Shown: one piece after another, positions 30,869-52,353 of the stretch
Position numbering within the stretch: the stretch's first letter is position 1
Layout of the letters: every line of letters begins with the position of its first letter
Assembly (NCBI GenBank): GCA_964567825.1
Contig: CAZMNX010000001.1
Span: forward strand, 34,775 to 98,774
Direction of reading: 5' to 3'
Length of the DNA stretch: 64,000 nt
Origin: an uncultured Candidatus Saccharibacteria bacterium
Lineage (GTDB): Bacteria > Patescibacteriota > Minisyncoccia > Phycocordibacterales > GWA1-40-21
The notes under the pieces: model-generated
What the model saw: the letters and a program-made list of their open reading frames with translations, nothing else
Database searches by the model: none
What the model was told of the DNA's origin: nothing
Position numbers and translations under genes: made by a program

Positions 30869-30941
30869 TCCGCCCAGTTGGAATCGAACCAACGACCTTC
30901 TCCTTAAAAGGGAGCTGCTCTACCAGCTGAGCTATGGGCGG
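30869..30941 (-). tRNA. tRNA-Lys (TTT)
   Basis: Acceptor CCGCCCA/TGGGCGG, D-arm GCTC-AGCTGGTA-GAGC, anticodon loop CTTTTAA, T-arm GTTGG-TTCGATT-CCAAC; the 3' end faces cassette C. Confidence 0.75.
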
Positions 30942-31008
30942 ATTGAAAAGAATATAACAAGAAAAAACCCAAATGTCCAATAATATTCCGACTATACAAT
31001 ATCAAAAA

Positions 31009-31052
31009 AGAGGCCGGTGGTGGGAATCGAACCCACACACCGCCTCCCATAT
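31009..31052 (-). terminator. tRNA T-arm-like hairpin plus T6: terminator of cassette D, or a tRNA 3' remnant
   Basis: On the minus strand GGCGGTGTGTGGG-TTCGATT-CCCACCACCGGCC is followed by TCTTTTTTGA. It has a T-loop-like TTCGATTCC, but no complementary 5' acceptor strand could be found. Confidence 0.4.
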
Positions 31053-31092
31053 TTGTTCTCCACCTCCAAACTAGATGTCTGTCGAGCCCCGT

Positions 31093-31947: not shown

Positions 31948-32050
31948 GGCACTGCCTTTCTGGTCCAATAATGTGGACCGATTGACTAACCAACAACCGA
32001 ACAGACATCAAAAAACTACTAAACCTAAAAAGGAGATTAGCACGAATAAT

Positions 32051-34634: not shown

Positions 34635-34805
34635 TGTCGTTATTTATGACAACAGTATATCACAGCCAATTATGTTGTAAAGCCCTTTATCCACAGCCTA
34701 TTTTAGAAAGTTAAAAAGTTTACTTTTATCGTATAGTCATATTTCGTGACTTATTGACAATTTCTATTATAATTACAGAGTTATTTAATAGGATAATTTA
34801 AAGAC

Positions 34806-35861: not shown

Positions 35862-35868
35862 GACACAG

Positions 35869-36672
35869 CTACTCCCGAAGCTCCCCATTCCCCCAGGCGA
35901 TCTCGAAGACCATTTTCATCATATCGTGAATGATTTGGTCTTCGATGATTACCCCGATAATATTTAGACCGCCAAGTTTTACAATTGAAACTTTATTTTT
36001 GCCATAAATAGTAATCTCGGCTTCATAAGGAAACTTTTCGGCTGGTATATAGCGTGCCTTGGGCCACAATTCTTTTTTTATATTCTCAAATACCTCTGGG
36101 CTGTAAGACCGATTCTCTGGTGTGTCAGGAAGAATCCCTCTGGTAGTAATATTCAAACGCTCCTTTGCTTTAATAAAAGCTTTCAACTGTATTGGGGTCA
36201 TAACATTTTTAAATTTATCAGCATTGGAAAAGGCCATCATCTCATAATTACCCTCTCGAGAAACTGCATCATTACAAATATTTAAAATAGTGTCTGGACC
36301 CTCGAAGAATAAAACTTTGGGACGATCGGCCATCAAAGAAAAGATTTCTTCAATATCCGGCAAGATTTTTTCGATTCTCTCTAAACTCGACTTAGCCATT
36401 TCAATTCGACTATTGGAATACTGGGCAAGTTTATGTGGTTTATCGATTTGATAAAATATTTTATTTCTTTTTTCTACTTCATTAACCAAACCTCGAACCG
36501 ATAGTGTGGCCAAAACATTATAAGTCGTGGCCCGCTTTAGGCCACAGTATTCAGCGATTCTGGAAGGATAGGCCCCACCGAGCTCAAGCAAGGACACATA
36601 AACCAAAGCTTCTTTGTCTGTAAAACCTGTACTTTCGAGTTTTTTAACTAGAGATTGATTCTTTATTTGCAT
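35869..36672 (-). CDS. TrmB-family transcriptional regulator (module 2)
   Basis: GFTDKEALVYVSLLELGGAYPSRIAEYCGLKRATTYNVLATLSVRGLV wHTH. Confidence 0.65.
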   Translation of the reverse strand: MQIKNQSLVKKLESTGFTDKEALVYVSLLELGGAYPSRIAEYCGLKRATTYNVLATLSVRGLVNEVEKRNKIFYQIDKPHKLAQYSNSRIEMAKSSLERIEKILPDIEEIFSLMADRPKVLFFEGPDTILNICNDAVSREGNYEMMAFSNADKFKNVMTPIQLKAFIKAKERLNITTRGILPDTPENRSYSPEVFENIKKELWPKARYIPAEKFPYEAEITIYGKNKVSIVKLGGLNIIGVIIEDQIIHDMMKMVFEIAWGNGELRE

Positions 36673-36888
36673 ATAAACAGTATATCAGGTGCCAAATTTA
36701 TTGTCAAACTAAACCGACAAAATAACCCACCTAGGCCTAAATCCTATTAAAATAAAGCTATTTTAGCCTTATTTGTCATTTGCTTCACCTAAAGTATTGA
36801 CAACCGTGTATACTTGTATCAGAACAAGCACGTTGAAATTTCGGTCAAAACAGGCTTATTAATTTAAAAATTAACATTTAAAACATTT

Positions 36889-37977
36889 ATGAAAAAATAT
36901 CTTGGAATTATATTAGCAATTATTGTCGTCATCGTCGGTATCCTAATCTTTAGTCAAAAAGAAACTAAATCACAAACGAGCGAGAAGCAAACGGTAAAAA
37001 TCGGTTTGAGTCTTCCCCTCTCTGGTGGTGTCGCCTTTCTCGGTGAACCAGCTAAGAAAGCAGCCGAGCTGGCCTTGAAGGATGCCGGCAAGACGAAATA
37101 CAATTATGAATTAGTTTTCGAAGACGATCAGTTCAGTCCAAAAATTGCCGCGAGCACAGCAAGTAAACTCATCAACGTGGACAAAGTTTTGGCGATAATC
37201 GAATTCGGTTCTGGTACCGGTAATGCTATCAATAGCATTGCAGAAAAGGGACAGACAGTTGAATTCGCTCTTGCCTCTGATCCAACGGTCGCTAAAGGAG
37301 TGTACAACTACGTTCACTGGACTCCGCCATTCAAGGAGGGACAATTACTGGCACAGGAGTTGATCCAGAGAGGATACAAAAAAGTATCAATTATTGATAC
37401 CAATCATCCCGGTCCTTTAGCGGTTACTGATGCAGTAAAAGAATTTGTAAAAGGTTCTGGTGTAGAGATTGTTTCTTATGATCTAACAAATATTGGAGAG
37501 AAAGATTTTAAAACAATTATTACTAAAATAAAGAAAGCTAACCCAGACATTGTTATTTTAGAGATGTTCTCACCAGAAATTGAAATCGCCGCTCGTCAAA
37601 TGAAAGAGTTGGGTGTAAATATACCCGTTACGTCAGTCGAGACATTTGAATGGAGCAGCAATCCGGAATTGTTTGAAGGTTCCTGGTTCGTCTCAGATTC
37701 AATCGTGCCGAACTTTACCGCTAAGTTTAAGTCAGCTTACGGCACCGATCCACAAGCCGGCTCATCTTACGTCTACGACTTGGTCAGCCTACTCATCAAG
37801 CTTCAAGAGAAATCGGACACCGTGATCGCGCCTAAAGATCTACCGGCGGCCATCACCCAAATGGGTGACTGGAATTCTCCGGTCTTTGGACAGGTAAAGA
37901 TCGACAGTGAAGGTTTCTTCATCACCGAACCATCGGTCAAAATGATCAAGGATGGCAAGGTTATCTCGGCCCAATAA
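36889..37977 (+). CDS. Liv-type ABC substrate-binding protein (module 2)
   Basis: VKIGLSLPLSGGVAFLGEPAKKAAELALKD. Confidence 0.7.
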   Translation: MKKYLGIILAIIVVIVGILIFSQKETKSQTSEKQTVKIGLSLPLSGGVAFLGEPAKKAAELALKDAGKTKYNYELVFEDDQFSPKIAASTASKLINVDKVLAIIEFGSGTGNAINSIAEKGQTVEFALASDPTVAKGVYNYVHWTPPFKEGQLLAQELIQRGYKKVSIIDTNHPGPLAVTDAVKEFVKGSGVEIVSYDLTNIGEKDFKTIITKIKKANPDIVILEMFSPEIEIAARQMKELGVNIPVTSVETFEWSSNPELFEGSWFVSDSIVPNFTAKFKSAYGTDPQAGSSYVYDLVSLLIKLQEKSDTVIAPKDLPAAITQMGDWNSPVFGQVKIDSEGFFITEPSVKMIKDGKVISAQ

Positions 37978-37983
37978 GCCAAC

Positions 37984-38014
37984 AAAAAACCACCCGCATC
38001 ATGGGTGGTTTTTT
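37984..38014. terminator. bidirectional rho-independent terminator (AAAAAACCACCC-GCATCAT-GGGTGGTTTTTTG)
   Basis: Perfect 8-bp stem flanked by A6 and T6, between the convergent SBP2 and livG genes. Confidence 0.7.
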
Positions 38015-38015
38015 G

Positions 38016-38768
38016 TTACTTCCCCAAATACGCCTCGATGACTTCGGGCTTAGACAGGACACTCACGGGCTCACCCTCGGCCAATAGTTTGCCGCTATCT
38101 AAAACGATCACATGGTCGGACAGGTCGCGAATGAGGTCCATATTATGCTCGATCAGCACCACAGTTTTGCCCTGAGTCCGCAATTCCTTTAAAAGACCAG
38201 AAACGATTTGAATCATCTCGGGAAACAGCCCAGCAAAAGGCTCGTCAAAAAAGATCGTATGCAAACCATCATCTTCTCCCAAATCCATCGCCAACACTCG
38301 CCCGATTTCTAATAATTTCCTCTGCCCGTAAGATAGATTGTGAGCGAGTTCATTTCTTTTTTCCCACAAATTCACTTTTTTCAAAACTTGCTCGGCAATA
38401 TCCAGATGAAATTTTTTATGCTTTTCAAAAAGAGATCCGAAGACGCCCCTCGAAGTAATCACAATCAAAATATTGTCCAAAACCGGCATTTGTTCGAACA
38501 AACGCACGTCTTGAAAGGTCCTGGTAATGCCAAAACTGGGTATATCAAAGGCTTTGATTTTTTTCAAAACGGTATGCTCGCCCACTTTCACCAAACCACT
38601 ATCATACGGAGTAAAACCGGTCAGCAAATTCACCAAGGTTGATTTCCCCGACCCATTTGGCCCAATCACGCCGGTGATTTTTCCTTCGGGAAAAGAAATA
38701 GATAGACCGTCCACTGCCTTCACTCCCCCAAAGTGCTTCTTGATATTTTCTGTTTTCACAATCGGCAT
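38016..38768 (-). CDS. livG: branched-chain amino acid-type ABC transporter ATP-binding protein (LivG-like)
   Basis: GPNGSGKST, LSYGQRKLLEIGRVL, IFFDEPFAG; 250 aa. Confidence 0.75.
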   Translation of the reverse strand: MPIVKTENIKKHFGGVKAVDGLSISFPEGKITGVIGPNGSGKSTLVNLLTGFTPYDSGLVKVGEHTVLKKIKAFDIPSFGITRTFQDVRLFEQMPVLDNILIVITSRGVFGSLFEKHKKFHLDIAEQVLKKVNLWEKRNELAHNLSYGQRKLLEIGRVLAMDLGEDDGLHTIFFDEPFAGLFPEMIQIVSGLLKELRTQGKTVVLIEHNMDLIRDLSDHVIVLDSGKLLAEGEPVSVLSKPEVIEAYLGK

Positions 38769-38823
38769 TCATACAGTATAACAAAAAACCATTGACAGCA
38801 AAATCACGTTTGTTATACTTTAA

Positions 38824-39282
38824 CTACTTACGGCCTTCGGGCTCGGAACCACCTTTACAAGAGGTGGTTTCATATTTACGTTCTTTATCATCAATGACGT
38901 CTTTCATCCTGTTTTTTATTTCTAAAAAATTTTCCTCATTAATATAACCGATTTTATCAATCAATCTCTTGCTATCGATTAACTTTATTTGAGAAAGGTT
39001 GACTGTATTCTTGGTCTCAACACTAAAAACATCAAAACTGAAATAGTACTTCCCCAATTTGTGTTGTGAAGTCAAAGAAAGTCCCCAGAAAGTTTCGGCA
39101 TTAAACTTTTTGAATATTAAAACCGGTCTTCTAAATTCATCGCCCTTCCCATCTTGTTCATATCCGACATTCAGACCTAAGTGACACCACCAGACTTCTC
39201 TAGTGCGAAAAAACACATTATCTATGTCTTTCAGATTGATAATCTTTTTCTTCTCATTCCACCGATCAAAATCTTTCCCCAT
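38824..39282 (-). CDS. MazF/PemK-family endoribonuclease toxin-like protein, no adjacent antitoxin ORF
   Basis: VWWCHLGLNVGYEQDGKGDEFRRPVLIF...LSLTSQHK and C-terminal SQIKLIDSKRLIDKIGYI fit the PemK/MazF fold pattern; only 83 nt of non-coding DNA lie upstream. Confidence 0.6.
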   Translation of the reverse strand: MGKDFDRWNEKKKIINLKDIDNVFFRTREVWWCHLGLNVGYEQDGKGDEFRRPVLIFKKFNAETFWGLSLTSQHKLGKYYFSFDVFSVETKNTVNLSQIKLIDSKRLIDKIGYINEENFLEIKNRMKDVIDDKERKYETTSCKGGSEPEGRK

Positions 39283-39365
39283 ATCGCCCGACAGTCTAAC
39301 ACAAGAAAAAAGACAGATTTTAAACTAAAATGTGGATAAATCGAGGGAGTATTTTTTGTGAGGTA

Positions 39366-40517
39366 CTAGTACTTCACCCAGCCATCCTTGGTGTAAGTTT
39401 GAAGATAAGTTTTTCTGTTTGAATTACCCAAATTATCAAATGAAAGCTCCCCAGCCGCACCGTTCATCTTGATCTGACGTAAGTTGTCCGCCACCTCCTT
39501 GGTATTATTTATATCTTTGCTTTTTTCTAGGGCCCATTTTAAAGCATAAACGTCATCATAGGCATAAGTAGCATCGGCAATTAGTAAGTCCACACCATAG
39601 GCTATTTTGTAATTCTTTTGAAACTCAATCGCTTTTATATTATTTGAATCTAAATCATAGTTATTATCTACCACCCTCATCTTTACTAAAGTTTCTTTAA
39701 ATTGCTCATACATAAATGGTAAAACATATACAGTGGAACCCGAATACAATCTCTTGTTATCCAGACCAAAGACTTTCAGTTGTTTGGTTATATTTATAGT
39801 CTCAGACCCTGGAAAACCATAAACCACAATGGCGTCAGGATTAAAAGATTTGATTTTCGCCATTTGAGTCTTAAAATCTAAATCTCCAAAGCTAAACATT
39901 TGATCTAAAAACTGAGAACTAACAGCTTCGGATTTAAGCCCGGCCAGAAAGACCTCGGTATCACCAAAATTTACAGCCATAATCCCCACTTTTTTCATGC
40001 CATCATTATTCAAGGCCTGACCAATAGAACGACCCACTTCCTCCATATCCCAATAATCCCTGAACACGTAGTTACCTGTCCCAACTCGAGAAACGGTGGC
40101 TGTAATATAAAGAACTTTATTCTGTTCCGCCACCGGCGCCGAGGCGAGTGACTGGCTAGAAAAAGCGGTAAAAAGATACCTTACCTCATCTATATTAATT
40201 AACTTTTGTACAGCACTAACAGATTTTGTAACATCGCCCCAATCATCCTCAAAAAGAACTTCCAGTCTCTTTCCATCAACCCCACCATTACCGTTAATTT
40301 CTTTTACGGCTAATTCAATTCCCCTTTTGTATTCAATACCATAAGTAGAAAACTGCCCCGTTAAAGGATAGACAGCTCCGATTTTAATAAAATTATTGTC
40401 GTTTGATTTTGTAACACCAGTCAGGACAGCTAAAATTACTATAACCGTTATCGCCGACCATAAGATGTACCTTGTTTTATTTTTCATCACATGAGTATTG
40501 TGCCACAACATCGCCAT
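39366..40517 (-). CDS. Liv-type ABC substrate-binding protein (module 3)
   Basis: IKIGAVYPLTGQFSTYGIEYKRGIELAVKEINGNGGVDGK. Confidence 0.7.
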   Translation of the reverse strand: MAMLWHNTHVMKNKTRYILWSAITVIVILAVLTGVTKSNDNNFIKIGAVYPLTGQFSTYGIEYKRGIELAVKEINGNGGVDGKRLEVLFEDDWGDVTKSVSAVQKLINIDEVRYLFTAFSSQSLASAPVAEQNKVLYITATVSRVGTGNYVFRDYWDMEEVGRSIGQALNNDGMKKVGIMAVNFGDTEVFLAGLKSEAVSSQFLDQMFSFGDLDFKTQMAKIKSFNPDAIVVYGFPGSETINITKQLKVFGLDNKRLYSGSTVYVLPFMYEQFKETLVKMRVVDNNYDLDSNNIKAIEFQKNYKIAYGVDLLIADATYAYDDVYALKWALEKSKDINNTKEVADNLRQIKMNGAAGELSFDNLGNSNRKTYLQTYTKDGWVKY

Positions 40518-40617
40518 CTAGTCCTTATTTTAGAATAAGCAAACAATACATTTTAATTATAGCTTGTATATAAAGCATATTATGCTATACTAAAGTCGTC
40601 CAAAGTTTGGACTTATT

Positions 40618-41358
40618 ATGAATACGCTAAACAAATTGATCCGGTACGGCCTCAGCAAATTCGAAGCCACCGTATATCTAGACGTCCTTTCCCACCTGGA
40701 TTCATCTGCTTTTGCTATCTATAAAAGAGTTGGGCTACCAAAAACTAGCGTCTATCATATTTTGGAATCGTTAAGAAAACGAGGCCTGGTAGAATCTTGG
40801 AAAAAAAATAACATCCAGCACTTTTCAGCTGGTAGTCCAAAAAGACTTCTATTTGAGCTAAAGGAAAAAGAAGATCTTCTACAATCCCTCGTTCCAGACC
40901 TCACTACTCTTTCCAATCAAGAAAACCAGACCAACTCTGTAAAAATGTACGAGGGAGCGAATAATTTAAAAAAGGTTATGCGGGAGGCATTAGAATATTG
41001 CGCAAAGCATAAAACCAACAGCATGCTAACGGCCGCCACAGATTCCATATCGTCCGATATGCCAAAATTTATGGATGACTGGCTCAAAGAAAGAGAAAAA
41101 ATGAATATCTTTGTAAAAATGCTTATACCTAAAGGCAAAATACCATTAGGCTTTCAGTCAAATAGCCTTCGAGAAACAAAGTTTCTACCAGAAAATTTCT
41201 TCCTACCAGGCATAATAAACATTTATGGCAACCGAGTAGATCTGTTCTCATTCAAGAACAATAAAATAAACTCTGTGGTCATTGATTCCGAAGCCTACAC
41301 CGACCTGTTGCGTAACTTCTTCTTGCTTACTTGGAATAACGCCGAGAAAACAAACTAA
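40618..41358 (+). CDS. TrmB-family transcriptional regulator (module 3)
   Basis: GLSKFEATVYLDVLSHLDSSAFAIYKRVGLPKTSVYHILESLRKRGLV. Confidence 0.65.
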   Translation: MNTLNKLIRYGLSKFEATVYLDVLSHLDSSAFAIYKRVGLPKTSVYHILESLRKRGLVESWKKNNIQHFSAGSPKRLLFELKEKEDLLQSLVPDLTTLSNQENQTNSVKMYEGANNLKKVMREALEYCAKHKTNSMLTAATDSISSDMPKFMDDWLKEREKMNIFVKMLIPKGKIPLGFQSNSLRETKFLPENFFLPGIINIYGNRVDLFSFKNNKINSVVIDSEAYTDLLRNFFLLTWNNAEKTN

Positions 41359-41360
41359 CC

Positions 41361-42392
41361 CTACCTCACACATTTCCCGCCTTCAATCTTAGTCAACACC
41401 AAATCTCGCTCGACGACATTGTTTTTGTTAAAAGTAATGTCGCCATAGACCCCTTCAATTTTGTTTGTTTTGAGATATGACAGAGCCTTTTCGGGATTAT
41501 TATTGGTTGCCTTCATGGCGTAAAGCGCCGTCAAAGTATTTTCGTAGGCTAAACCGTAAAAAGTCGAGTAGCTGGCGCCGAGTTTTGATATAGGATATTC
41601 ATAACTGTAATTACCGTCCAAACTAAATCTCTTATCAGTCAAAACACCAGGAAAAGTACAAGACAGGTAGGTCAGATACGGAACCTTAACTCCCAAGGTC
41701 GACAAATCAGCAAAAACTTGATTAAGAGACGGACCATACCCCACGACAACCAAGACATCTGGTTGAAACTTCTTTATCTTCAAAGCCTCGGTCTTGAAAT
41801 CGGTGGTTGTCTTTTCAAAAGAAAAAGTTGCCACCGCTCGATCCGAGGCAATCGTCTTCTGCCATTCGTTTTTCCAAATGTTTCCAAACTCATCATTGAT
41901 GTTCACGATGGCTACCCTTTTCCAATTCGAATTAGCATTTACCTGCTTACTCACATCATTTAATGACGGCACTAAACCTTGAAACAAATAGGTTTTGTCT
42001 TTAGTCAAACCATAACCAGCCGCATCGGTAATCAAAACGACCTTGGCTTTTTCTGCGAGTGGCGCCACCGCATTGGTCACCCCACTTAAACCAGTCACAG
42101 CAAATTTTACTTGATCTATCTCGAATAGTTTATTAGCTGCCGACACCGCCACCTTAGGATCATTAGCTGAATCCTCTAAAATTAAATCAACTTTTATGCC
42201 AGTTTGCTCTTCAAAATGTCTCACCGCATCTTTTACCCCCTGAGCCGAAAGCTCACCAAAGATCGCTGAAGGGCCAGACAAAGCATACAAAGCACCAATC
42301 TTTAAGGTTCCAGTTTTTGTTCTATTAAAACCGAAATAAACGCCGATTACTAGTAAAGCTACAACGACTAAAGCAATAATTATCTTTTTCAT
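41361..42392 (-). CDS. Liv-type ABC substrate-binding protein (module 4)
   Basis: LKIGALYALSGPSAIFGELSAQGVKDAVRHFEEQTG. Confidence 0.7.
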   Translation of the reverse strand: MKKIIIALVVVALLVIGVYFGFNRTKTGTLKIGALYALSGPSAIFGELSAQGVKDAVRHFEEQTGIKVDLILEDSANDPKVAVSAANKLFEIDQVKFAVTGLSGVTNAVAPLAEKAKVVLITDAAGYGLTKDKTYLFQGLVPSLNDVSKQVNANSNWKRVAIVNINDEFGNIWKNEWQKTIASDRAVATFSFEKTTTDFKTEALKIKKFQPDVLVVVGYGPSLNQVFADLSTLGVKVPYLTYLSCTFPGVLTDKRFSLDGNYSYEYPISKLGASYSTFYGLAYENTLTALYAMKATNNNPEKALSYLKTNKIEGVYGDITFNKNNVVERDLVLTKIEGGKCVR

Positions 42393-42477
42393 ACTTGCAT
42401 ATTATCAAACAAATGGTAACATATATCAATAAGCAGTTTTGTCGGAAAATATCGACATAATTGTGATAATAATCACA

Positions 42478-43221
42478 ATGAATATTCAGGAACTAGAAAA
42501 AATCGGCTTAACAGGCAAGAAAGCGAGAGTTTATTTAGCAGTCCTAGAGGTTGGCCAAGCTACAATTATTCAAATCGCTAGAAAGACCCTGATTAAAAGA
42601 ACGACTCTATATGATCTGGTAGCCGACCTAACAGCCCAAGGCTACTTATCAGAAATTAAAAAAGGTAATAAAAATATTATCATCGCCGAGGATCCTGCGG
42701 TTTTGATTAAAACTTTCGAGAATCGATTGGACGAGGTGAGAGACTTAGCGCCAACTCTATTTAAAATCTTCAACTCCGTCACTTCCCGCCCCCAGATTCG
42801 TTTCTATGAAGGAGTCGAGGGCATAAGGCATATGATGGAAGAGGCTTTGGTAATGAAACAAAAAGAAGTTCACTATTGGGGCCCGGCGGATAATATTATT
42901 GAGATTTTGGGAAATGTTTATATTGATAAATGGTTGAAAAGAAGAGTCCGAGCGGGTATCCAGACTCACGGCCTCCTCACCCAAAATGCCCCACGAGGCT
43001 CAAAACCGTTCCTGAAAACCGATAAAAACGCCTTGCGTGAGGTGCGTTGGCTATCCACCAAAACTATTTTTGATGGCATCCTCTGGCTTTATGATAATAA
43101 AGTGATGTACATCGCTTCGGCTAAGGATTCCTTTGGCTTCATCATCGAAAGTGACAACTTCACCCAATTTATGAAGGTTATTTTCCAAAGTATGTGGGAG
43201 ACAGCGAGGGAGGATAGGTAG
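42478..43221 (+). CDS. TrmB-family transcriptional regulator (module 4)
   Basis: MNIQELEKIGLTGKKARVYLAVLEVGQATIIQIARKTLIKRTTLYDLVADLTAQGYL; the start was moved from 42439 to 42478 by alignment with the paralogs. Confidence 0.65.
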   Translation: MNIQELEKIGLTGKKARVYLAVLEVGQATIIQIARKTLIKRTTLYDLVADLTAQGYLSEIKKGNKNIIIAEDPAVLIKTFENRLDEVRDLAPTLFKIFNSVTSRPQIRFYEGVEGIRHMMEEALVMKQKEVHYWGPADNIIEILGNVYIDKWLKRRVRAGIQTHGLLTQNAPRGSKPFLKTDKNALREVRWLSTKTIFDGILWLYDNKVMYIASAKDSFGFIIESDNFTQFMKVIFQSMWETAREDR

Positions 43222-43223
43222 AA

Positions 43224-43254
43224 CAAAAAACACCCAGGAAGGGGTGTTTTTTGT
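43224..43254. terminator. bidirectional rho-independent terminator (AAAAAACACCC-AGGAA-GGGGTGTTTTTTG)
   Basis: Hairpin flanked by A and T runs, between the convergent regulator-4 and SBP5 genes. Confidence 0.7.
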
Positions 43255-43277
43255 TTACCATAATCAATGTCCCGAGT

Positions 43278-44405
43278 TTAGATTTTTGTAGGGACACCTT
43301 TAACTAGCTTGAAGGCTGATTCAACGATTGGTGCCGCACCGTTATTATCAATAGTCACTAAACCAGTTGAACCTTGATAATTTGAGATTTTAAGGAGACT
43401 AGATTTTACAGCACTCGCAGTAATCTCGCCCTTAATACCCGGCAATACCTTGGTCAACAAAATATTTGTTGCATCGTAGGCTGGGTGTGTGGTCAGAGGA
43501 AGAATTGGACCTCGACCAACTAAAGCCTTAAACTTGGCGTCAAAAGCTGCAGCTTGACCGTTGGTTGCATCAGCATCCCAATAAGCGAAGGTCGTTCCTT
43601 CAGCCTTACCATCTGCCAATTGCTGTGCTATTGGGCTAGTAATAGTACCAGTGGTGTAGAAAGATTGTTTCATTCCTAAATCTCGAGTTTGTTTCATAAT
43701 CAAGCCAGTTTCATCATGACCCAGCAAAACCAAACCCTCAACATTCCCCGTCTTAAGTTTTAATAATTGAGTTCTAAAATCTTTATCTTCATAGTTGAAT
43801 GATTCGATTTGTACTTTACCACCCTTACTTTCAAACTCTTTCTTGAATGAGTTCGCCACAATCGCCATGAAAGTATCTTTGGTTGAATACATAATACCGG
43901 CGCTCTTTTTACCCTCGGCCGCCATCTGATCGGCTAGTGAAATACCAATTGATTCGGTTTCTGTCGCTAAACAAAACACATTTTTGGAAGCATTAGCCAC
44001 CTCCTTATTACAATCCAGCGGATTAATTATTACGACCCCATCCTGAGCCGCCTTATCCATCACCGCGAACAAACCGCCATAACTAGCGACTAAAATAACT
44101 TTTACTTTATCGACGTTCACAAGCTTCTCGTAAGCTGAAACCGTATTCTTGGTTAAGTACTGATCGTCTTCAGAAATTAGCTCGACTTGTCTACCATTTA
44201 CCCCGCCAGCCTTGTTAACATCGGCAACCGCAATTTCCACCGCTTTCACCGCGTCCATACCCAGCACCGCTGATGGACCAGTAAGCGGACCAATGTAACC
44301 AATCTTGATTGGCTCAGTTGTGCCGACAGGTGAAACTCTGCTAAAATACATACTAAGGCCGATAATCACGATTATTAGAACGATAATGCTTAATGTCTTT
44401 TTCAT
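43278..44405 (-). CDS. Liv-type ABC substrate-binding protein (module 5)
   Basis: IKIGYIGPLTGPSAVLGMDAVKAVEIAVADVNKAGGVNG. Confidence 0.7.
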   Translation of the reverse strand: MKKTLSIIVLIIVIIGLSMYFSRVSPVGTTEPIKIGYIGPLTGPSAVLGMDAVKAVEIAVADVNKAGGVNGRQVELISEDDQYLTKNTVSAYEKLVNVDKVKVILVASYGGLFAVMDKAAQDGVVIINPLDCNKEVANASKNVFCLATETESIGISLADQMAAEGKKSAGIMYSTKDTFMAIVANSFKKEFESKGGKVQIESFNYEDKDFRTQLLKLKTGNVEGLVLLGHDETGLIMKQTRDLGMKQSFYTTGTITSPIAQQLADGKAEGTTFAYWDADATNGQAAAFDAKFKALVGRGPILPLTTHPAYDATNILLTKVLPGIKGEITASAVKSSLLKISNYQGSTGLVTIDNNGAAPIVESAFKLVKGVPTKI

Positions 44406-44527
44406 ATAAATTATTTGTTATTAAGATTGATAAACTTGACCGTATATCCATCTTAGCATATAATATATTAATTGTCAACCAAAAAGGGTGACAATAATGA
44501 GTAAAAAGACAAAAAAGGGCTAAAAAT

Positions 44528-45289
44528 ATGAATATTTCCAAAGAAATTCAAAAACTGCTAGACCTCGATTTCACTCCAAATGAGGCTTCCGTCTACTCAA
44601 TCCTGATCCAGAGCGGTTCGACCAAGGCAGGCGTGATAATCAGCAAAACCGGGCTCCATCGTAACCTAGTTTATACCGCTTTGGATCATTTAATTGCCCG
44701 AAAAATCGTCTCGGTTCAGGATTCCAAGAGCGGGCGAGTCTATACCGCTATTTCACCAAACATTTTAATTGAGGAGTATGACCATAAAAAAGAATTGGCC
44801 GAGGAGCTAACAAAAAGTTTTAAACAAAAAAGTTTTATCGGCGATCAAGAAATTTCTGTGCATGAGGGCAATGAAGACTATTTAAAACTTTTGACTAGTG
44901 TGATCAATTCCCTACCCCAAGGCTCAACCAAGCTCGTTTTGGGTACTGGCGGGGCGGATTTTATGCGCCATACCATGTTGTCGATTTGGGACAAATACCA
45001 TGAGGTAGCGAAAAAACAACAGATAAAGATAAAGATGCTCGCTTACGGCGAACAAAGAGGTGCCCTAGAGAAAGTAACGGCCGCCGAAGGAATTTACAAC
45101 ATTAAATACCTGCCAGCTGATACAGAAAACCCCGCTGGTATTCATATTTATCCCGAAATAAATACTGTCTTAAACATTATTTACTCCACTGAATTCCAAC
45201 CAGTTACGGCCATAAAAATCAAAAATAAATCCTTAACCCAGGGTTATCTAAATTTATTCAATAATCTGTGGAAGGAGGGAGAGAAGTAA
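44528..45289 (+). CDS. TrmB-family transcriptional regulator (module 5)
   Basis: LDFTPNEASVYSILIQSGSTKAGVIISKTGLHRNLVYTALDHLIARKIV. Confidence 0.6.
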   Translation: MNISKEIQKLLDLDFTPNEASVYSILIQSGSTKAGVIISKTGLHRNLVYTALDHLIARKIVSVQDSKSGRVYTAISPNILIEEYDHKKELAEELTKSFKQKSFIGDQEISVHEGNEDYLKLLTSVINSLPQGSTKLVLGTGGADFMRHTMLSIWDKYHEVAKKQQIKIKMLAYGEQRGALEKVTAAEGIYNIKYLPADTENPAGIHIYPEINTVLNIIYSTEFQPVTAIKIKNKSLTQGYLNLFNNLWKEGEK

Positions 45290-45335
45290 AATTTGACAGT
45301 AAAATCACACCCGCTATAATGATTGTAATAGACGT

Positions 45336-45369
45336 GAACGGCATCCTAAATGGGTGCCGTTCGTTTTTT
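45336..45369 (+). terminator. rho-independent terminator (GAACGGCA-(11-nt loop)-TGCCGTTC-GTTTTTT)
   Basis: 8-bp stem plus T-run after the regulator-5 stop. Confidence 0.6.
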
Positions 45370-46000
45370 ATAAATCTGTACGTTTTAGGTGCTCTCGGAG
45401 GTAAGTGAAATCCATAAATTTATCCCCGGCAAATCTCCTAATTTCTTTCGCTGTTCTTAGCCCACTAGCTAACACCATAACTTTTTTCTCGTCAACATTA
45501 CGTAAATATTTCAAAACGGGCAAAAAGTCTCCGTCACCAGAAAGTACAAGAACCTGCCCAAACAAACCCCTATCACGCATTAAGTAAAAAGCCATTTCCA
45601 CATCACAATTTGCTTTACGTTTTTTACTACCAGCCTCATCTTCATAAATCTTTACCGGCTTCAAGACAAGTTTGTACTTAAACTCTTCCAGTTTTTTATA
45701 AAAACGGACTTGTTTTAGATGACGTTCGAGAATAGTAAGTTCAACATTAGTAAAACTTTTGCTATTTTTCTCAACATAATCTATAAGGTATTTTTCTAGA
45801 TCCGCCAAAGAAACGGTGTCGTTTGTCAGGTAATCAAAGGAAAACTTGTGAATTTCTACACCTCCAAAATAATAGATTTTGGATACTCCGAACTTACCTC
45901 GGAGATATTTATGAAGTTTTTCAAAATCAATTTTCCAACCCAAACTTTTCTCCCCTCCATAGAATAAATTGGATGCATCAATATAAGCGAATGTTTCCAT
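45368..46000 (-). CDS. NYN-domain (LabA-like, PIN-fold) putative RNase
   Basis: AYIDASNLFYGG ... VLSGDGDFLPVLKYL, characteristic of NYN/LabA domains. Confidence 0.6.
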   Translation of the reverse strand: METFAYIDASNLFYGGEKSLGWKIDFEKLHKYLRGKFGVSKIYYFGGVEIHKFSFDYLTNDTVSLADLEKYLIDYVEKNSKSFTNVELTILERHLKQVRFYKKLEEFKYKLVLKPVKIYEDEAGSKKRKANCDVEMAFYLMRDRGLFGQVLVLSGDGDFLPVLKYLRNVDEKKVMVLASGLRTAKEIRRFAGDKFMDFTYLREHLKRTDL

Positions 46001-46097
46001 ATCGCCAGGCAGTCTAGCACGAGAAAAAAGAGGTCCTGGCGAAGAACTGTGGATAAAAACAACCCTATTTTACAAGGAAGGAGACCTACTACTCGTT

Positions 46098-46964
46098 TTA
46101 CAATTTATACTCCCCAACCAGCCCCTGTGGCCTATATAGCATAAGTAAGACTAAGAGAAGACCGTACACCACTTGGCGCATTTGGGCAGCGACATCGGTG
46201 GGAAAACCAACGAAACGGAGAATTTCGGGGAGAAGAATGAGGAAAATAGCGCCGACGACTGAGCCTTTCAGGCTGGCCATACCGCCGAGGATAATGATAG
46301 CGAGAATAAAGATACTTTCGTTCAAACCAAAAGTGGAGGGGTCAATAAAAGTAATATACGTCGCAAAAAGTCCACCAGCCAAACCGGCCATCCCAGCGGT
46401 AATAATAAAAATAGTTAGTTTAAATAATTTGGTGTTGTAACCAAACACCGATAAGGCTTTCTCGTCTTCTCTAATACCTTTCAAGACTCGGCCAAAAGAG
46501 GATTTGGTGATTCCTAAACTAATTAAATAAACCAGACCCGCACCAACGATCGTTAGAATCAGAAAAGATAAATTACTACTTAATTCAAAGCCAAACAATG
46601 ACGGCCGATTGATACCGGGAATGCCGAGTGGGCCGCGAGTTAAACTTTCCCAATTTAGAAAGATGCTGTAGATAATAATGTTGAAACCAAAAGACACTAA
46701 AGCATAGTAATCATCTTTAAAACGGCTCAAGATCAGGCCAAGGAGGCCCGCAATGAGCCCCGCCAGGATAATCCCCACGAGCAAGGCTAGAAAAAAGTTC
46801 CAGCCATATACCGTCATCAGAATCGCCACAGCATAGGCGCCAATGCCATAAAAAGCGGCGTGAGTGACGGAAAGTAACCCCGTATACCCCACCACCAAAT
46901 TTAGTGAGAGTGCTAGTGGCACATATATTCCGATTAGAATGGCGAGATGAATAAAGTATTCCAT
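46098..46964 (-). CDS. livM: branched-chain amino acid-type ABC transporter permease (LivM-like)
   Basis: VGYTGLLSVTHAAFYGIGAYAVAIL and about 8 TM. Confidence 0.7.
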   Translation of the reverse strand: MEYFIHLAILIGIYVPLALSLNLVVGYTGLLSVTHAAFYGIGAYAVAILMTVYGWNFFLALLVGIILAGLIAGLLGLILSRFKDDYYALVSFGFNIIIYSIFLNWESLTRGPLGIPGINRPSLFGFELSSNLSFLILTIVGAGLVYLISLGITKSSFGRVLKGIREDEKALSVFGYNTKLFKLTIFIITAGMAGLAGGLFATYITFIDPSTFGLNESIFILAIIILGGMASLKGSVVGAIFLILLPEILRFVGFPTDVAAQMRQVVYGLLLVLLMLYRPQGLVGEYKL

Positions 46965-46981
46965 TAGTTTTAGATTATATC

Positions 46982-47728
46982 TTATTTTCTAACTTCAGAC
47001 ACCAGCCACAAGGCACTAAATAAGCCACGCATGGTATTTGAGAACTCTTTACTCTCAACAATAAAACCAAAATTTTCTTGTGGAGTAGAAATAATCGCCA
47101 CTTTATTATCATAAATAAAGATCGTCTCTGTGATGTGTATGCCTTCAGGGGCAATTCTCAATTCTCGCATTATATTAGTTTGGTAGATATCCTCCATTAC
47201 TTCAGTATTTTTCATTCGAATACTCTTGGCAGTAATGTTCTTTTCAACCCTCAGTTTCAACCATTGATCAATATAATCTTTTCCCACAGTGTCGATAACA
47301 TCTTTCCCCGATCCAATATATAAATATTCTCGGCTTTTAACTTTCAAAACATCGTCAAAAATACCCTGAACAGCTTTTTGACCCGAAAAATACCTCATAG
47401 TTGGGCCGTCTGTTTTCTGCCTGAATACTTTCAACAAATCCCCCGACAGTCTTTGGGCAATTACCATCTGAGTCTCAGCTTGTTTTTTCAAAATCTCGGG
47501 AGATTCCGCCTTATATTTAACTTTCTTCGAGCCAGGCACGACCGAAACTAACCCTTTTTCTAATAATTCATCCAGAACGAGATAGCAAGTTGGCCTTTTG
47601 ATTCCTGCTCTACCCGCTAATTCAGAGACAGAGAAAGTGTCCAGTTCTAAGGAGCGGACATAGACGATCGCCTGTCTTTCTGTCAGCCCTAATGATATAA
47701 GTTTATTTTTAGATTCAATAAAATCCAT
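46982..47728 (-). CDS. TrmB-family transcriptional regulator (module 6)
   Basis: GLTERQAIVYVRSLELDTFSVSELAGRAGIKRPTCYLVLDELLEKGLV. Confidence 0.65.
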   Translation of the reverse strand: MDFIESKNKLISLGLTERQAIVYVRSLELDTFSVSELAGRAGIKRPTCYLVLDELLEKGLVSVVPGSKKVKYKAESPEILKKQAETQMVIAQRLSGDLLKVFRQKTDGPTMRYFSGQKAVQGIFDDVLKVKSREYLYIGSGKDVIDTVGKDYIDQWLKLRVEKNITAKSIRMKNTEVMEDIYQTNIMRELRIAPEGIHITETIFIYDNKVAIISTPQENFGFIVESKEFSNTMRGLFSALWLVSEVRK

Positions 47729-47905
47729 ATACCGACCATATTAGCAAAAGCCGAATAATTTGTCAACATCTGTGACAACTTATTGTAAATTAGACAGTAG
47801 CGTTGTTTCTAGCCACATTTTAGTGTTATGTGTCCCAGTTTTTGACACAAACCAAAGAACCTGCTATACTTTAAATAGAAAATTATAAATTATTACATAA
47901 TATAA

Positions 47906-48988
47906 ATGAATAAAACATATAAAATAGCGTTGGCGATTGTAGTCTTGATACTTATTGGATCTGCTTTATTTTGGAACGCGGGCCATAAAAGCAATAATGT
48001 GGCGGTTGGTGCCATATTATCTCTAACTGGTCCGGCTCAATATTTTGGTGAGGAAACCAAAAAGGGCATGGATTTGGCTAACCAGGACGGCGCGGTGAAT
48101 TTTGTTTACGAGGATAGCCGATCGGATGCAACTACGGCGGTCTCGGCTTATAACAAACTTAAATCACAGAATATTAAGGCCGTAGTCCTATCGCTGAGCA
48201 ATGTGGCCGAAGTGGTTGTTCCCCTAACCGAAAAAGATCAGATATTTTCTGTACAAAATCTTGTCTCGGCTAGAAAGGTTCAGGGTGATATGTCGGTACG
48301 GTTTTTCACCTCGGCTGAACAAGAAGCGCCAATCATGGCAAATTTTGCGGCGAGTAACCTGAAATTAAATAGGGTTGCGATATTAGCCAGCACCGATGCC
48401 TACGGTAAGACTTACGCTGAAGTCTTCAAAACTACTTTTGAAAATTTTGGTGGTCAGGTCGTCATAAATGAAAGTTATGACAAGAAAGACCAAGATTTCA
48501 AAACCCAGCTGGCAAAAATAAAGATTTCTGATGCCGAAGGTGTCTATATCATTGGTCTTGATACTCATTTGGTCAGTATATTCAAGCAAATGAATGAGCT
48601 TGGATTAAAACAAATTAAAATGACTAATTGGATAATGGCCTCTCCAGGCGTTCAGGCCAAAGTCGGGGCTAATAGTGAAGGTGTGTATATGACGACCCCA
48701 GATTACTATATTGCCGGCAATAAAAAAGTGGCTGATTTTACCGAAGCTTATCAGAAGAAATATGGAACGCTCCCAAGTGCTTACTCGGCTATCGGTTACG
48801 ATACAACTAGTTTGTTTAGGGAAGCAGTAAAGGGCGCAAAAAGCTCTCAGGATATTCAGAATAATTTCAAAAATATCAAGAACTTTGACGGCTTGATGGG
48901 TAAATTAAATGTAAATGAAAAGGGAGAAATAACCATTCCGCTTATTCCAGCCAAGATGGAAGGTGGAAAGATGGTTGTGATAAAATAA
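47906..48988 (+). CDS. Liv-type ABC substrate-binding protein (module 6)
   Basis: VAVGAILSLTGPAQYFGEETKKGMDLANQ. Confidence 0.7.
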   Translation: MNKTYKIALAIVVLILIGSALFWNAGHKSNNVAVGAILSLTGPAQYFGEETKKGMDLANQDGAVNFVYEDSRSDATTAVSAYNKLKSQNIKAVVLSLSNVAEVVVPLTEKDQIFSVQNLVSARKVQGDMSVRFFTSAEQEAPIMANFAASNLKLNRVAILASTDAYGKTYAEVFKTTFENFGGQVVINESYDKKDQDFKTQLAKIKISDAEGVYIIGLDTHLVSIFKQMNELGLKQIKMTNWIMASPGVQAKVGANSEGVYMTTPDYYIAGNKKVADFTEAYQKKYGTLPSAYSAIGYDTTSLFREAVKGAKSSQDIQNNFKNIKNFDGLMGKLNVNEKGEITIPLIPAKMEGGKMVVIK

Positions 48989-49008
48989 GTATCTTCACAA
49001 ATAAAATA

Positions 49009-49043
49009 ACAAAAAACTAGCCTGTAATGTGGGCTAGTTTTTT
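49009..49043. terminator. bidirectional rho-independent terminator (AAAAAACTAGCC-TGTAATGTG-GGCTAGTTTTTTG)
   Basis: Perfect stem with A6/T6 flanks, between the convergent SBP6 and SBP7 genes. Confidence 0.7.
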
Positions 49044-49069
49044 GTTATCTTAGATCCTATTAAACGCTA

Positions 49070-50200: not shown

Positions 50201-50372
50201 GTAATTTATAAATCTTAATTAATAACAACCCTCGACATAGATAAGGATACCATGTTATAATATATTAGTCACATTTGTCTTTACACAAATTGAAGCTTGC
50301 AAAAAAGCCTTTTGTAATATAGACTTATTTAGTCGATATTTTGTCTTTTATTTCCGACATATCCAAGAAAAA

Positions 50373-51119: not shown

Positions 51120-51120
51120 A

Positions 51121-52197: not shown

Positions 52198-52353
52198 ATT
52201 ATATTTTTATTATTAATAGAACGACACGTAAAGCATATCAAGTAAATAGTATTTAATCTATAATAATTAGACGATTATCTTACTTTTACCAAAAAACTCT
52301 TGCTTTACATAGTTTAAAATGCTAGAATAAGTAGTCATAAATGATGACTTTTT

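What the first reader, a model, noticed from the sequence alone, without database searches (positions are those of the whole stretch)
39283..46060. An orphan MazF-like toxin gene and an NYN-RNase gene share a conserved ~50-nt 5' leader that runs into the start codon and contains a DnaA-box 9-mer
In coding orientation both genes are preceded by ...TTTATCCACA...TCTTTTTTCT(T/C)GTG(T/C)TAGACTG(TCG/CCT)GGCGAT|ATG with no obvious SD. The motif TTATCCACA (perfect DnaA-box consensus) lies at 39331-39339 and 46048-46056. Each gene sits directly downstream of a transporter gene (SBP3 / livM), and neither has an antitoxin-sized partner. Two unrelated RNase-type genes carrying the same leader suggests either a shared regulatory RNA/operator element or a common mobile origin. 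A third perfect TTATCCACA lies at 34687-34695 in the module-1 divergent promoter.
Basis: seen in the sequence. Interest (0 to 1): 0.7.

Follow-up and report, generated by a model that had tools for sequence, protein, structure and literature searches.

The report
Shared promoter on two RNase–small-RNA modules
Two unrelated RNase genes in a Parcubacteria-type genome carry near-identical promoters (not an RNA leader) with a DnaA-box-like site, and each pairs with a conserved, apparently undescribed small RNA gene on the opposite strand instead of a protein antitoxin.

Summary
Upstream of the MazF-like gene (38824-39282, -) and the NYN gene (45368-46000, -) lie TTTATCCACA (10/10 identical), then 16-17 unrelated nt, then a 31-nt block (27/31 identical) that ends at the ATG. 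It is a promoter, not a leader RNA. In this genome, TANNNT sits 6 nt before the ATG in 16 of 57 genes and SD-like motifs occur in 4 of 57. The block reads as T-rich spacer, TGyTAGACT extended -10 and GC-rich discriminator, and it has no shared fold. The closest MazF-like ortholog keeps the box at the same spacing. Eighty NYN orthologs lack both box and block, so the NYN promoter here looks like a copy of the MazF-type promoter. TTATCCACA is a recurrent promoter-upstream site in Parcubacteria contigs (21 against about 2.6 expected in 290 kb). The genes are not true orphans. Every MazF-like homolog and every NYN ortholog examined has a convergent small structured RNA at its 3' end, driven by a consensus promoter. 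In this window the two small-RNA promoters also share a 16-mer. DnaA binding, transcription start sites, the function of the small RNAs and genome-wide copy number were not tested.

The parts
38824..39282 (-). MazF/PemK-like endoribonuclease gene (152 aa as an ORF). The conserved domain ends near 38887. The last ~20 codons read through the small-RNA gene on the other strand.
   Evidence: Pfam PF02452, E=7.9e-10. There are 77 homologs, whose source names place them in Patescibacteria. The N-terminus MxKDFDxWN is conserved, and R52, P53 and T71 are invariant in the 15-sequence alignment.
39283..39313 (-). Proximal conserved block of the MazF-like promoter: T-rich spacer TCTTTTTTCTTG (39302-39313), extended -10 TGT-TAGACT (39293-39301), GC-rich discriminator plus start region GTCGGGCGAT (39283-39292).
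   Evidence: The promoter reading comes from the genome-wide -10 position statistics and from MazF-family promoters of the TTGTGnTAnAnT type.
39331..39340 (-). TTTATCCACA (DnaA-box consensus plus a 5' T), at about -45 to -54 from the inferred transcription start.
   Evidence: The same 9-mer lies at the same 29-nt distance from the TG of the -10 in ortholog locus L014.
38792..38819 (+). Consensus-type promoter antisense to the MazF-like gene: TTGACA-16-TATACT. It contains the shared 16-mer TTGACAGCAAAATCAC.
   Evidence: An equivalent promoter is present in MazF-like homolog loci.
38826..38878 (+). Small structured RNA convergent with the MazF-like gene: hairpin GGCC-UUCG-GGCU (38832-38843), then a terminator-like hairpin (38845-38871) and the tail AUAUUU.
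   Evidence: Fold z=-4.2. Conserved in all MazF-like homolog loci examined. Pairs are kept in 100% of cells, 2 pairs are compensatory, and G-U pairs fix the strand. The covariance model hits 38814-38883 at 86 bits, and hits only next to MazF-like genes. No Rfam match.
45368..46000 (-). NYN/LabA-like nuclease gene (210 aa).
   Evidence: Pfam PF01936, E=4.9e-13. There are 2528 homologs; the best are 60-76% identical and named Parcubacteria. D8, D133, D156 and D158 are invariant.
46001..46031 (-). Proximal conserved block of the NYN promoter: TCTTTTTTCTCG (46020-46031), TGC-TAGACT (46011-46019), GCCTGGCGAT (46001-46010).
   Evidence: The block is absent upstream of 80 NYN orthologs, most of which show ordinary -10-like boxes close to the ATG.
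46048..46057 (-). TTTATCCACA, 28 nt upstream of the TG of the -10.
45293..45320 (+). Perfect consensus promoter antisense to the NYN gene: TTGACA-16-TATAAT (12/12). It contains the shared 16-mer TTGACAGTAAAATCAC.
   Evidence: An equivalent promoter is visible in nearly all of the 71 ortholog 3' flanks.
45327..45372 (+). Small hairpin RNA of about 45 nt, convergent with the NYN gene: 5' tail AAUAGACGU, an 11-13-bp stem (45334-45364) and a U-run.
   Evidence: Fold z=-5.7. In 64 sequences 99.9% of cells are paired, 9 of 11 pairs are compensatory, and one U-G pair is kept in 63 of 64, which fixes the strand. The covariance model has one significant hit in the window, at 68 bits. No Rfam match.
34686..34695 (+). 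Third TTTATCCACA. Read on the minus strand it is TGTGGATAA-5 nt-TTTACA-16-TATACT, the promoter of the TrmB-family regulator gene 33864-34634.

Best explanation
The shared sequence is the promoter of each gene, not an RNA leader. The organism is Parcubacteria-like, has almost no Shine-Dalgarno sites, and places a -10 box a few nucleotides before most start codons, so its mRNAs are leaderless or nearly so. In both copies the 31-nt block reads as a T-rich spacer, a TRTG-type extended -10 (TGyTAGACT) and a GC-rich discriminator (GyCkGGCG). Transcription would then start 2-4 nt before the ATG. The TTTATCCACA 10-mer sits at about -45 to -54, the usual place for a factor that contacts RNA polymerase; there is no -35 hexamer. 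DnaA is the simplest candidate, because the site is its exact consensus. This promoter type belongs to the MazF-like gene. The closest ortholog keeps the box at identical spacing although the sequence between box and -10 is randomised, and more distant homologs keep the T-tract plus TGTGTTAGA. NYN orthologs elsewhere have ordinary promoters. In this lineage the NYN gene therefore most likely acquired a copy of the MazF-type promoter by duplication or gene conversion. Selection then kept the box and the core block while the 16-17 nt between them drifted. Both genes are halves of analogous two-part modules: an RNase gene with a weak promoter, facing a tiny structured RNA gene with a consensus promoter. 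The two small-RNA promoters also share a lineage-specific 16-mer. The two modules are therefore wired to the same pair of promoters and are probably co-regulated. Shown: the sequence identity, promoter geometry, absence of a shared fold, ortholog comparisons, small-RNA covariation and box enrichment. Inferred: the start sites, the factor's identity, the direction of copying, co-regulation and any antitoxin-like role of the RNAs.
For: Identity and non-randomness. Leaderless architecture: TANNNT lies 6 nt before the ATG in 16 of 57 genes and 9 nt before it in 8 of 57, against a background of roughly 2-3 per position; SD-like motifs occur in 4 of 57 genes. The element's TAGACT, with TG two bases upstream, lies 10 nt before the ATG in both copies. 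No shared RNA structure: single folds give z=+0.36 and -2.5 with different structures, and the consensus fold is -2.2 kcal/mol. Ortholog P0002 (72% identical, downstream of gyrB) has TTATCCACA-29 nt-TGCTAGTAT-9 nt-ATG, and the intervening sequence matches at 6 of 28 positions by my count. MazF-family promoters share the T-rich spacer plus TGTGnTAnAnT. None of 80 NYN orthologs has a forward TTATCCACA or the block within 110 nt upstream; one, L023, has the box in reverse orientation at -66. Perfect boxes number 21 in 290 kb of Parcubacteria contigs, against a mean of 2.6 for same-composition 9-mers. Nineteen of the 21 lie outside ORFs, and many lie 1-7 nt upstream of a -35 hexamer. Eight of 61 NYN small-RNA promoter regions carry a perfect box, against 0.055 expected. 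Convergent small RNAs. In the whole window only these two loci show a consensus promoter followed by a hairpin and a T-tail.
Against: No transcription start sites are known. TAGACT lies 10 nt from the ATG rather than the modal 6, so a short 2-4-nt leader has to be assumed. The upstream transporter genes have no recognisable terminators, so read-through transcripts that contain the block as intercistronic RNA cannot be excluded. The box is single rather than clustered, and is oriented opposite to the commonest TGTGGATAA-then-(-35) arrangement. DnaA binding is untested, and another factor could recognise the site. Sharing of lineage-specific sequence at both the 5' and the 3' promoters requires either two conversion events or a common regulator; neither was shown. 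Only 64 kb of the genome could be searched for further copies.
Confidence: 0.65

Rival explanations
1. The two promoters, and the two small-RNA promoters, are operators for a dedicated lineage-specific regulator rather than DnaA. A candidate is one of the eight TrmB-family regulators encoded around them. The similarity would then be maintained by that factor's sequence requirements.
For: The conservation is mosaic: two conserved blocks separated by unrelated sequence, as between paralogous promoters under selection. A second shared 16-mer, TTGACAGYAAAATCAC, occurs only at the two small-RNA promoters. Eight TrmB-family genes lie within 20 kb. The block is not seen in any other fetched locus.
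Against: The box is an exact DnaA consensus and recurs across many unrelated Parcubacteria lineages, which argues for a universal factor. The conserved block has no palindrome, as a dimeric HTH regulator would need. No common sub-motif links the 5' and 3' shared sequences.
Confidence: 0.15
2. The shared flanks are remnants of a mobile cassette. A unit of the form [5' promoter - cargo - small RNA - 3' promoter] was duplicated, and its cargo was then exchanged. Alternatively, the blocks are recombination sites.
For: Both flanks of both genes share lineage-specific sequence. The MazF-like module sits in a different genomic context in every lineage: gyrB, MFS, RmuC-L21, FtsW, Fic-HTH, YebC-RuvC. 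Both modules interrupt transporter gene clusters. This genome shows another 5'-module duplication, between genes 19540 and 20997.
Against: There are no terminal inverted or direct repeats, no target-site duplications and no tandem repeats. No recombinase gene lies among the genes annotated between 33.8 and 53 kb. The shared stretches coincide exactly with promoter elements. The motif has no matches beyond chance level in viral contigs or representative genomes. NYN plus its small RNA is present in every Parcubacteria ortholog locus examined, which looks vertical rather than mobile.
Confidence: 0.1
3. The block is a transcribed cis-regulatory RNA (attenuator, thermosensor or RNase recognition site) in read-through transcripts from the upstream transporter genes.
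For: No terminator is detected between the transporter genes and the RNase genes. The NYN copy can form a GCCAGG/CCTGGC hairpin with z=-2.5.
Against: That hairpin is absent from the MazF copy (z=+0.36). The consensus fold is -2.2 kcal/mol with essentially no covariation. There is no Rfam hit. Orthologs of both genes lack the block.
Confidence: 0.05
4. The resemblance is only generic promoter similarity (T-rich spacer, TRTG, -10) plus a chance 9-mer.
For: T-rich spacers and TGTGnTAnnnT are common in this genome and in MazF-family promoters.
Against: No other promoter in the window comes within 3 mismatches of the 22-mer, against 0 expected. The GC-rich discriminator is shared although it is atypical for this AT-rich genome. 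The 10-mer box is identical and sits at 28 or 29 nt.
Confidence: 0.05

Closest known systems
Extended -10 (TRTGn-TATAAT) promoters that drive leaderless mRNAs, as mapped in Mycobacterium tuberculosis, where TA-system transcripts are predominantly leaderless (abstracts of PMC3898074 and PMC8485053).
   Same: The -10 lies directly upstream of the start codon, there is no SD and no -35, a TG motif is present, and the genes served are toxin-type.
   Different: The -10 is 10 nt rather than 6-7 nt from the ATG, which implies a 2-4-nt leader. The discriminator is GC-rich. Start sites are not mapped in this organism.
DnaA-box-controlled promoters (E. coli dnaA and nrdAB, B. subtilis sda and dnaA; from general knowledge).
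   Same: An exact 9-mer consensus TTATCCACA lies in the promoter-upstream region. It is conserved in an ortholog while its flanks are randomised.
   Different: The box is single, not clustered. It sits at about -49 next to a promoter that lacks a -35. DnaA binding is untested. The same motif serves many promoters, including small-RNA promoters, in Parcubacteria.
Type I toxin-antitoxin loci with a convergent antisense RNA (E. faecalis par/fst RNA I-RNA II, B. subtilis txpA/RatA and bsrG/SR4; from general knowledge).
   Same: A toxin gene with a weak promoter faces a small RNA gene with a strong promoter at its 3' end. The two converge on one hairpin. There is no protein antitoxin.
   Different: The 'toxins' here are RNases of 130-210 aa, not small membrane peptides. 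The RNA does not overlap the conserved coding region. I found no conserved pairing between the NYN RNA's 5' tail and its mRNA.
Type III toxin-antitoxin systems (ToxIN, CptIN, TenpIN; PMC3401426, PMC5086642).
   Same: An endoribonuclease toxin is paired with a structured RNA and has no protein antitoxin. From general knowledge, ToxN has a MazF/Kid-like fold.
   Different: There is no tandem array of RNA repeats. The RNA gene is convergent and downstream, not upstream and co-directional. The RNA is a single hairpin unit with its own promoter.
Type II MazEF/PemIK modules.
   Same: The gene has a PemK/MazF domain with a conserved Arg-Pro and a conserved Thr; from memory these match the catalytic Arg25 and Thr48 of B. 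subtilis MazF.
   Different: No mazE-like gene is present here or consistently in the homolog loci. The protein has a conserved N-terminal extension, KDFDxWNxKKK.

Membership tests
Leaderless-type promoter (extended -10 immediately upstream of the start codon) | A -10 hexamer TANNNT, with TG 1 nt upstream, within about 5-11 nt of the ATG | tested here: met
   TGT-TAGACT and TGC-TAGACT lie 10 nt before the ATG. The genome-wide peak is at 6 nt, with a secondary peak at 9 nt.
Leaderless-type promoter (extended -10 immediately upstream of the start codon) | No Shine-Dalgarno motif | tested here: met
   No GGAG, GAGG or AGGA lies within -18 to -4 of either gene. Only 4 of 57 genes in the window have one.
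Leaderless-type promoter (extended -10 immediately upstream of the start codon) | Transcription start at or within a few nt of the start codon | not testable with these tools
   This needs 5'-end mapping of RNA from the source community.
DnaA-regulated promoter | Match to the 9-mer DnaA-box consensus TTATCCACA | tested here: met
   Perfect matches lie at 39331-39339, 46048-46056 and 34687-34695.
DnaA-regulated promoter | Several boxes clustered at the promoter, as is typical of strong DnaA targets | tested here: not met
   Each promoter has a single box. One-mismatch boxes are not enriched and none lies adjacent.
DnaA-regulated promoter | DnaA binding and DnaA-dependent expression | not testable with these tools
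   This needs EMSA or ChIP and reporter assays.
Cis-regulatory leader RNA (riboswitch or attenuator) | A conserved secondary structure supported in all copies | tested here: not met
   the folds differ, the consensus energy is -2.2 kcal/mol, and Rfam has no hit.
Type II MazEF toxin-antitoxin module | A MazF/PemK-family toxin domain | tested here: met
   PF02452, 39.4 bits against a cutoff of 23.1.
Type II MazEF toxin-antitoxin module | An adjacent co-transcribed protein antitoxin gene | tested here: not met
   No such ORF is present in the window. None is conserved across the homolog loci.
Type III toxin-antitoxin system | A tandem array of antitoxin RNA repeats upstream of the toxin gene and co-directional with it | tested here: not met
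   No tandem repeats lie near either gene. The RNA gene is single, downstream and convergent.
Type III toxin-antitoxin system | The RNA binds and inhibits the endoribonuclease | not testable with these tools
   This needs co-expression and rescue experiments plus binding assays.
Type I toxin-antitoxin system (convergent class) | A small antisense RNA gene with its own promoter that converges on the toxin gene's 3' end | tested here: met
   Searches show promoter, hairpin and U-tail on the antisense strand. The strand is fixed by conserved G-U pairs.
Type I toxin-antitoxin system (convergent class) | The toxin is a small hydrophobic peptide | tested here: not met
   The genes encode a MazF-like RNase of 152 aa and an NYN nuclease of 210 aa.
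Mobile element or cassette boundary (MITE, integron attC) | Terminal inverted repeats, target-site duplications or an attC-like palindrome that flank the unit | tested here: not met
   no flanking repeats. The inverted repeats found there are the small-RNA hairpins and two back-to-back -10 regions.

The most novel reading that the evidence does not exclude
MazF-like and NYN nucleases of Parcubacteria each form an undescribed two-part module with a dedicated, convergently transcribed 40-55-nt structured RNA driven by a consensus promoter. The module could be an RNA-antitoxin system of a new architecture (neither type I nor type III) or an obligate RNase-RNA partnership. DnaA-box sites would tie expression of these modules to replication status. 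In this genome the two modules would have been placed under one promoter pair.
Probability: 0.3. Interest if true: 0.8.

Novelty: new variant of a known kind. Interest (0 to 1): 0.55.

Why it matters
Three things follow if this holds. First, the 'strange leader' is explained by the leaderless gene organisation of Parcubacteria, which gene callers and motif scans for these uncultivated bacteria should take into account. Second, an exact DnaA box emerges as a recurrent promoter-upstream site in a phylum with very few transcription factors, which gives a testable handle on global regulation there. Third, MazF-like and NYN genes annotated as solitary turn out to be paired with conserved structured small RNAs that are absent from Rfam. 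This is a candidate new arrangement of RNase control by RNA, and it is open to simple tests: toxicity and rescue in E. coli, and in-vitro binding and cleavage.

Tried and rejected
1. A genome-contig scan with TTTTTTCTNGTGNTAGACTG gave 12 single hits in unrelated taxa. None was followed by GGCGATATG or preceded by the box, so they look like chance hits. The source genome is not in that collection, so no whole-genome count was possible.

2. A viral-contig scan for the motif gave 2 single matches, which I did not inspect. A viral-contig scan for MazF-like relatives found nothing.

3. A fuzzy search for the 34-nt block (up to 8 substitutions) across all fetched loci found only the window copies and the same-organism contig L013.

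4. The RNA-leader hypothesis was rejected on the single and consensus folds and on Rfam.

5. The small-ORF reading of the MazF-associated RNA was rejected. The window copy has ACG instead of ATG. The hairpin length varies between 23 and 24 nt, which would shift the frame. The stem covaries.

6. Trans pairing of the NYN small RNA's 5' tail with its own mRNA was tested with RNAduplex on 64 loci. The best sites are scattered and weak, so there is no support.

7. Similarity to solved structures, NCBIfam and PADLOC gave no PDB or NCBIfam hits and only a generic NYN hit in PADLOC.

8. Literature searches for a TTATCCACA motif in Patescibacteria, for an RNA antitoxin paired with MazF or NYN, and for leaderless mRNAs in CPR bacteria found nothing directly relevant.

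9. The 12-nt exact inverted copy of CTTTTTTCTCGT inside the NYN coding region was judged probably chance and low complexity.

Full report
**Observation**

Both genes lie on the minus strand. In gene orientation, the upstream sequence of the MazF-like gene (38824-39282) is ...GATTTATCCACA-TTTTAGTTTAAAATCTG-TCTTTTTTCTTGTGTTAGACTGTCGGGCGAT-ATG. The upstream sequence of the NYN gene (45368-46000) is ...TTTTTATCCACA-GTTCTTCGCCAGGACC-TCTTTTTTCTCGTGCTAGACTGCCTGGCGAT-ATG.

- The 10-mer TTTATCCACA is identical in both copies.
- The next 17 or 16 nt are unrelated.
- The last 31 nt match at 27 positions.
- The 22-mer core with up to 3 mismatches occurs only at these two places in 64 kb, against 0 expected. 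It is the longest direct repeat in the surrounding 21 kb.
- TTATCCACA occurs three times against 0.55 expected. TTTATCCACA occurs three times against 0.17 expected, and none of 100 shuffles reaches three.
- One-mismatch boxes are not enriched.

Both start codons are right, because the N-termini are conserved in homologs.

**Organism and gene organisation**

Source names of homologs of both proteins place them in Patescibacteria/Parcubacteria. The window is about 39% GC.

I listed the upstream regions of 57 ORFs and counted TANNNT positions.

| Position of TANNNT before the ATG | Genes (of 57) |
|---|---|
| 6 nt | 16 |
| 9 nt | 8 |
| Other positions | roughly 2-3 each |

SD-like motifs occur in only 4 of 57 genes. 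The genome therefore runs largely on leaderless or near-leaderless mRNAs, and the sequence directly before an ATG is normally the promoter. Most NYN orthologs and MazF-like homologs show the same arrangement.

**What the block is**

In both copies TAGACT is preceded by TGT or TGC (a TRTG-type extended -10). It lies 10 nt before the ATG, behind a T-rich spacer and ahead of a GC-rich stretch (GTCGGGCG or GCCTGGCG). No -35 hexamer is present at the expected position. By ordinary start-site rules (general knowledge) the transcript would begin 2-4 nt before the ATG. The box then occupies about -45 to -54.

Folding gives no shared structure. The MazF copy has z=+0.36. The NYN copy has z=-2.5, from a hairpin that the other copy lacks. 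The consensus fold, including the ortholog, is -2.2 kcal/mol. Rfam gives nothing. I therefore read the element as a promoter, not a leader RNA.

**Comparative evidence**

- The closest MazF-like ortholog (P0002, 72% identical, downstream of gyrB) has TTATCCACA-29 nt-TGCTAGTAT-9 nt-ATG. The box-to-TG spacing is the same as in the window, while the intervening 28 nt match at only 6 positions by my count. That is a phylogenetic footprint on the box.
- Other MazF-like homologs lack the box. They keep TTGTGnTAnAnT behind a T-rich spacer, for example ttcTTGTGTTATACT in L103 and TCTTTTCTTG...TGTGTTAGAAA in L117.
- None of 80 NYN orthologs from metagenomes has a forward TTATCCACA or the block within 110 nt upstream. 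One, L023, has the box in reverse orientation at -66.

The promoter type is therefore native to the MazF-like gene. The NYN gene of this lineage most likely received a copy. The mosaic pattern (conserved box and core, randomised middle) suggests that both parts are under selection.

This genome has another 5'-module duplication. Genes 19540-20112 and 20997-21632 share an identical stretch of at least 23 nt directly before the ATG and identical first 43 codons, but otherwise unrelated proteins.

**The box is a general promoter-upstream site**

In 290 kb of Parcubacteria contigs fetched around NYN orthologs, perfect TTATCCACA occurs 21 times. The mean for 9-mers of the same composition is 2.6.

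- Nineteen of the 21 lie outside ORFs of 150 aa or more.
- Many lie 1-7 nt upstream of a TTGAC -35 hexamer, in either orientation.
- Within a single contig, two different promoters can share box plus -35 (L065, L069).
- Eight of 61 promoter regions of the NYN-associated small RNA carry a perfect box, against 0.055 expected.
- The third box in the window fits the common arrangement: TGTGGATAA-5-TTTACA-16-TATACT drives a TrmB-family regulator gene.

The box is therefore functional but not nuclease-specific. DnaA is the simplest candidate binder, because the site is its exact consensus. This was not tested, and I found no literature on it.

**The genes are not orphans**

A promoter scan found consensus promoters on the plus strand at the 3' ends of both genes. 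These are TTGACA-16-TATACT at 38792-38819 and TTGACA-16-TATAAT at 45293-45320. They share the 16-mer TTGACAGYAAAATCAC, which occurs nowhere else in the window without mismatches. Each promoter is followed by a stable hairpin RNA with a U-rich tail (z=-4.2 and -5.7).

*MazF-associated RNA.* Every MazF-like homolog locus examined has the same arrangement and a conserved RNA: GGCC-UUCG-GGCU, then a covarying terminator-like stem, then UCAUAUUU.
- In six sequences all pairs are kept.
- Two pairs are compensatory.
- G-U pairs fix the strand.
- The window's MazF ORF merely reads through this RNA gene, which explains its C-terminal extension.

*NYN-associated RNA.* All 71 NYN ortholog 3' flanks listed carry the conserved hairpin, and nearly all show a clear promoter ahead of it.
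- In 64 sequences 99.9% of cells are paired.
- Nine of 11 pairs show compensatory changes.
- One U-G pair is kept in 63 of 64 sequences.

Covariance models of the two RNAs hit only next to their own partner genes, and once each in the window. Neither RNA is in Rfam. In the whole window, only these two loci have a consensus promoter followed closely by a hairpin and a T-tail.

**Mechanism**

The arrangement of a weak toxin-type promoter facing a strong small-RNA promoter resembles convergent type I TA loci. The pairing of an endoribonuclease with a structured RNA resembles type III. Defining features of both types are missing: there is no peptide toxin, and there is no tandem repeat array.

The catalytic-type residues are conserved: R52, P53 and T71 in the MazF-like protein, and D8, D133, D156 and D158 in the NYN protein. 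I found no conserved pairing between the NYN RNA's 5' tail and its mRNA.

What the RNAs do remains inferred. My preferred reading is that they restrain or partner the RNases. In this genome both modules have been brought under the same promoter pair and the same box-binding factor.

**Mobile origin**

The MazF module sits in a different context in each lineage. However, no terminal repeats, target duplications, tandem repeats or recombinase genes mark the window copies. The shared stretches coincide with promoter elements. I keep this rival at about 0.1.

**Limits**

- The source genome is not in the searchable genome collection.
Genome-wide copy number of the block is therefore unknown.
- No transcription start sites or binding data exist.

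**Verdict**

The element is a duplicated leaderless-type promoter with a DnaA-box-like upstream site. The more interesting result is the pair of conserved, apparently undescribed convergent small RNAs that accompany these RNase genes in every Parcubacteria locus examined.

Noticed in passing
window 38792-38878 (+): A consensus promoter plus a conserved two-hairpin small RNA (GGCC-UUCG-GGCU, then a terminator-like stem) lies convergent with the MazF-like gene. It is present in every MazF-like homolog locus examined and is not in Rfam.
   Followed up: yes
window 45293-45372 (+): A perfect TTGACA-16-TATAAT promoter plus a conserved hairpin RNA of about 45 nt lies convergent with the NYN gene. The hairpin is present in all 71 ortholog 3' flanks listed and covaries very strongly. 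It is not in Rfam.
   Followed up: yes
window 38824-38887 (-): The C-terminal ~20 aa of the MazF-like ORF (...ETTSCKGGSEPEGRK) are the translation of the antisense strand of the small-RNA gene. Most homologs stop before it. A few homologs (P0002, P0055) show the same 'GGSEPEG'-type read-through.
   Followed up: partly
window 19517-19668 and 20974-21125 (+): Two neighbouring genes (19540-20112 and 20997-21632, no Pfam hit) share an identical stretch of at least 23 nt before the ATG and an identical first 43 aa (a signal or TM-like segment). Their Cys-rich remainders are unrelated. This is a recent duplication or conversion of the 5' module.
   Followed up: partly
window 33864-53127: This region is an array of about eight divergently transcribed pairs, each a TrmB-family regulator gene with a Peripla_BP_6 solute-binding protein gene. 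Two of the pairs (51121-52197/52354-53127 and SBP 49070-50200) are inferred from gene size and order only. ABC ATPase and permease genes are scattered among the pairs.
   Followed up: partly
L065 4270-4372 (-) and L069 4085-4180 (-): Other box-bearing promoters (TGTGGATAA, a few nt, then TTGAC) in Parcubacteria contigs are followed by further small hairpin-plus-U-tail RNAs. Within each contig, the box plus -35 segment is nearly identical to the one at the NYN small-RNA promoter.
   Followed up: partly
L117 835-3214: Three MazF-like paralogs lie within 2.4 kb of one another in one Patescibacteria contig. Each has a near-identical promoter and its own convergent small RNA variant.
   Followed up: partly
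window 38772-38785 / 38809-38822: A 14-nt inverted repeat (93% complementary) is formed by two back-to-back -10 regions (TTTGTTATACT). One serves the ABC ATPase gene and the other the MazF-associated small RNA.
   Followed up: no
window 45481-45492 vs 46019-46030: An exact 12-nt inverted copy of the promoter T-tract block (CTTTTTTCTCGT) lies inside the NYN coding sequence. It is probably chance or low complexity.
   Followed up: no
window 30001-32000: This is a locally GC-rich segment (0.556 against about 0.39 elsewhere) next to tRNA-Lys at 30868-30941. Its nature was not examined.
   Followed up: no
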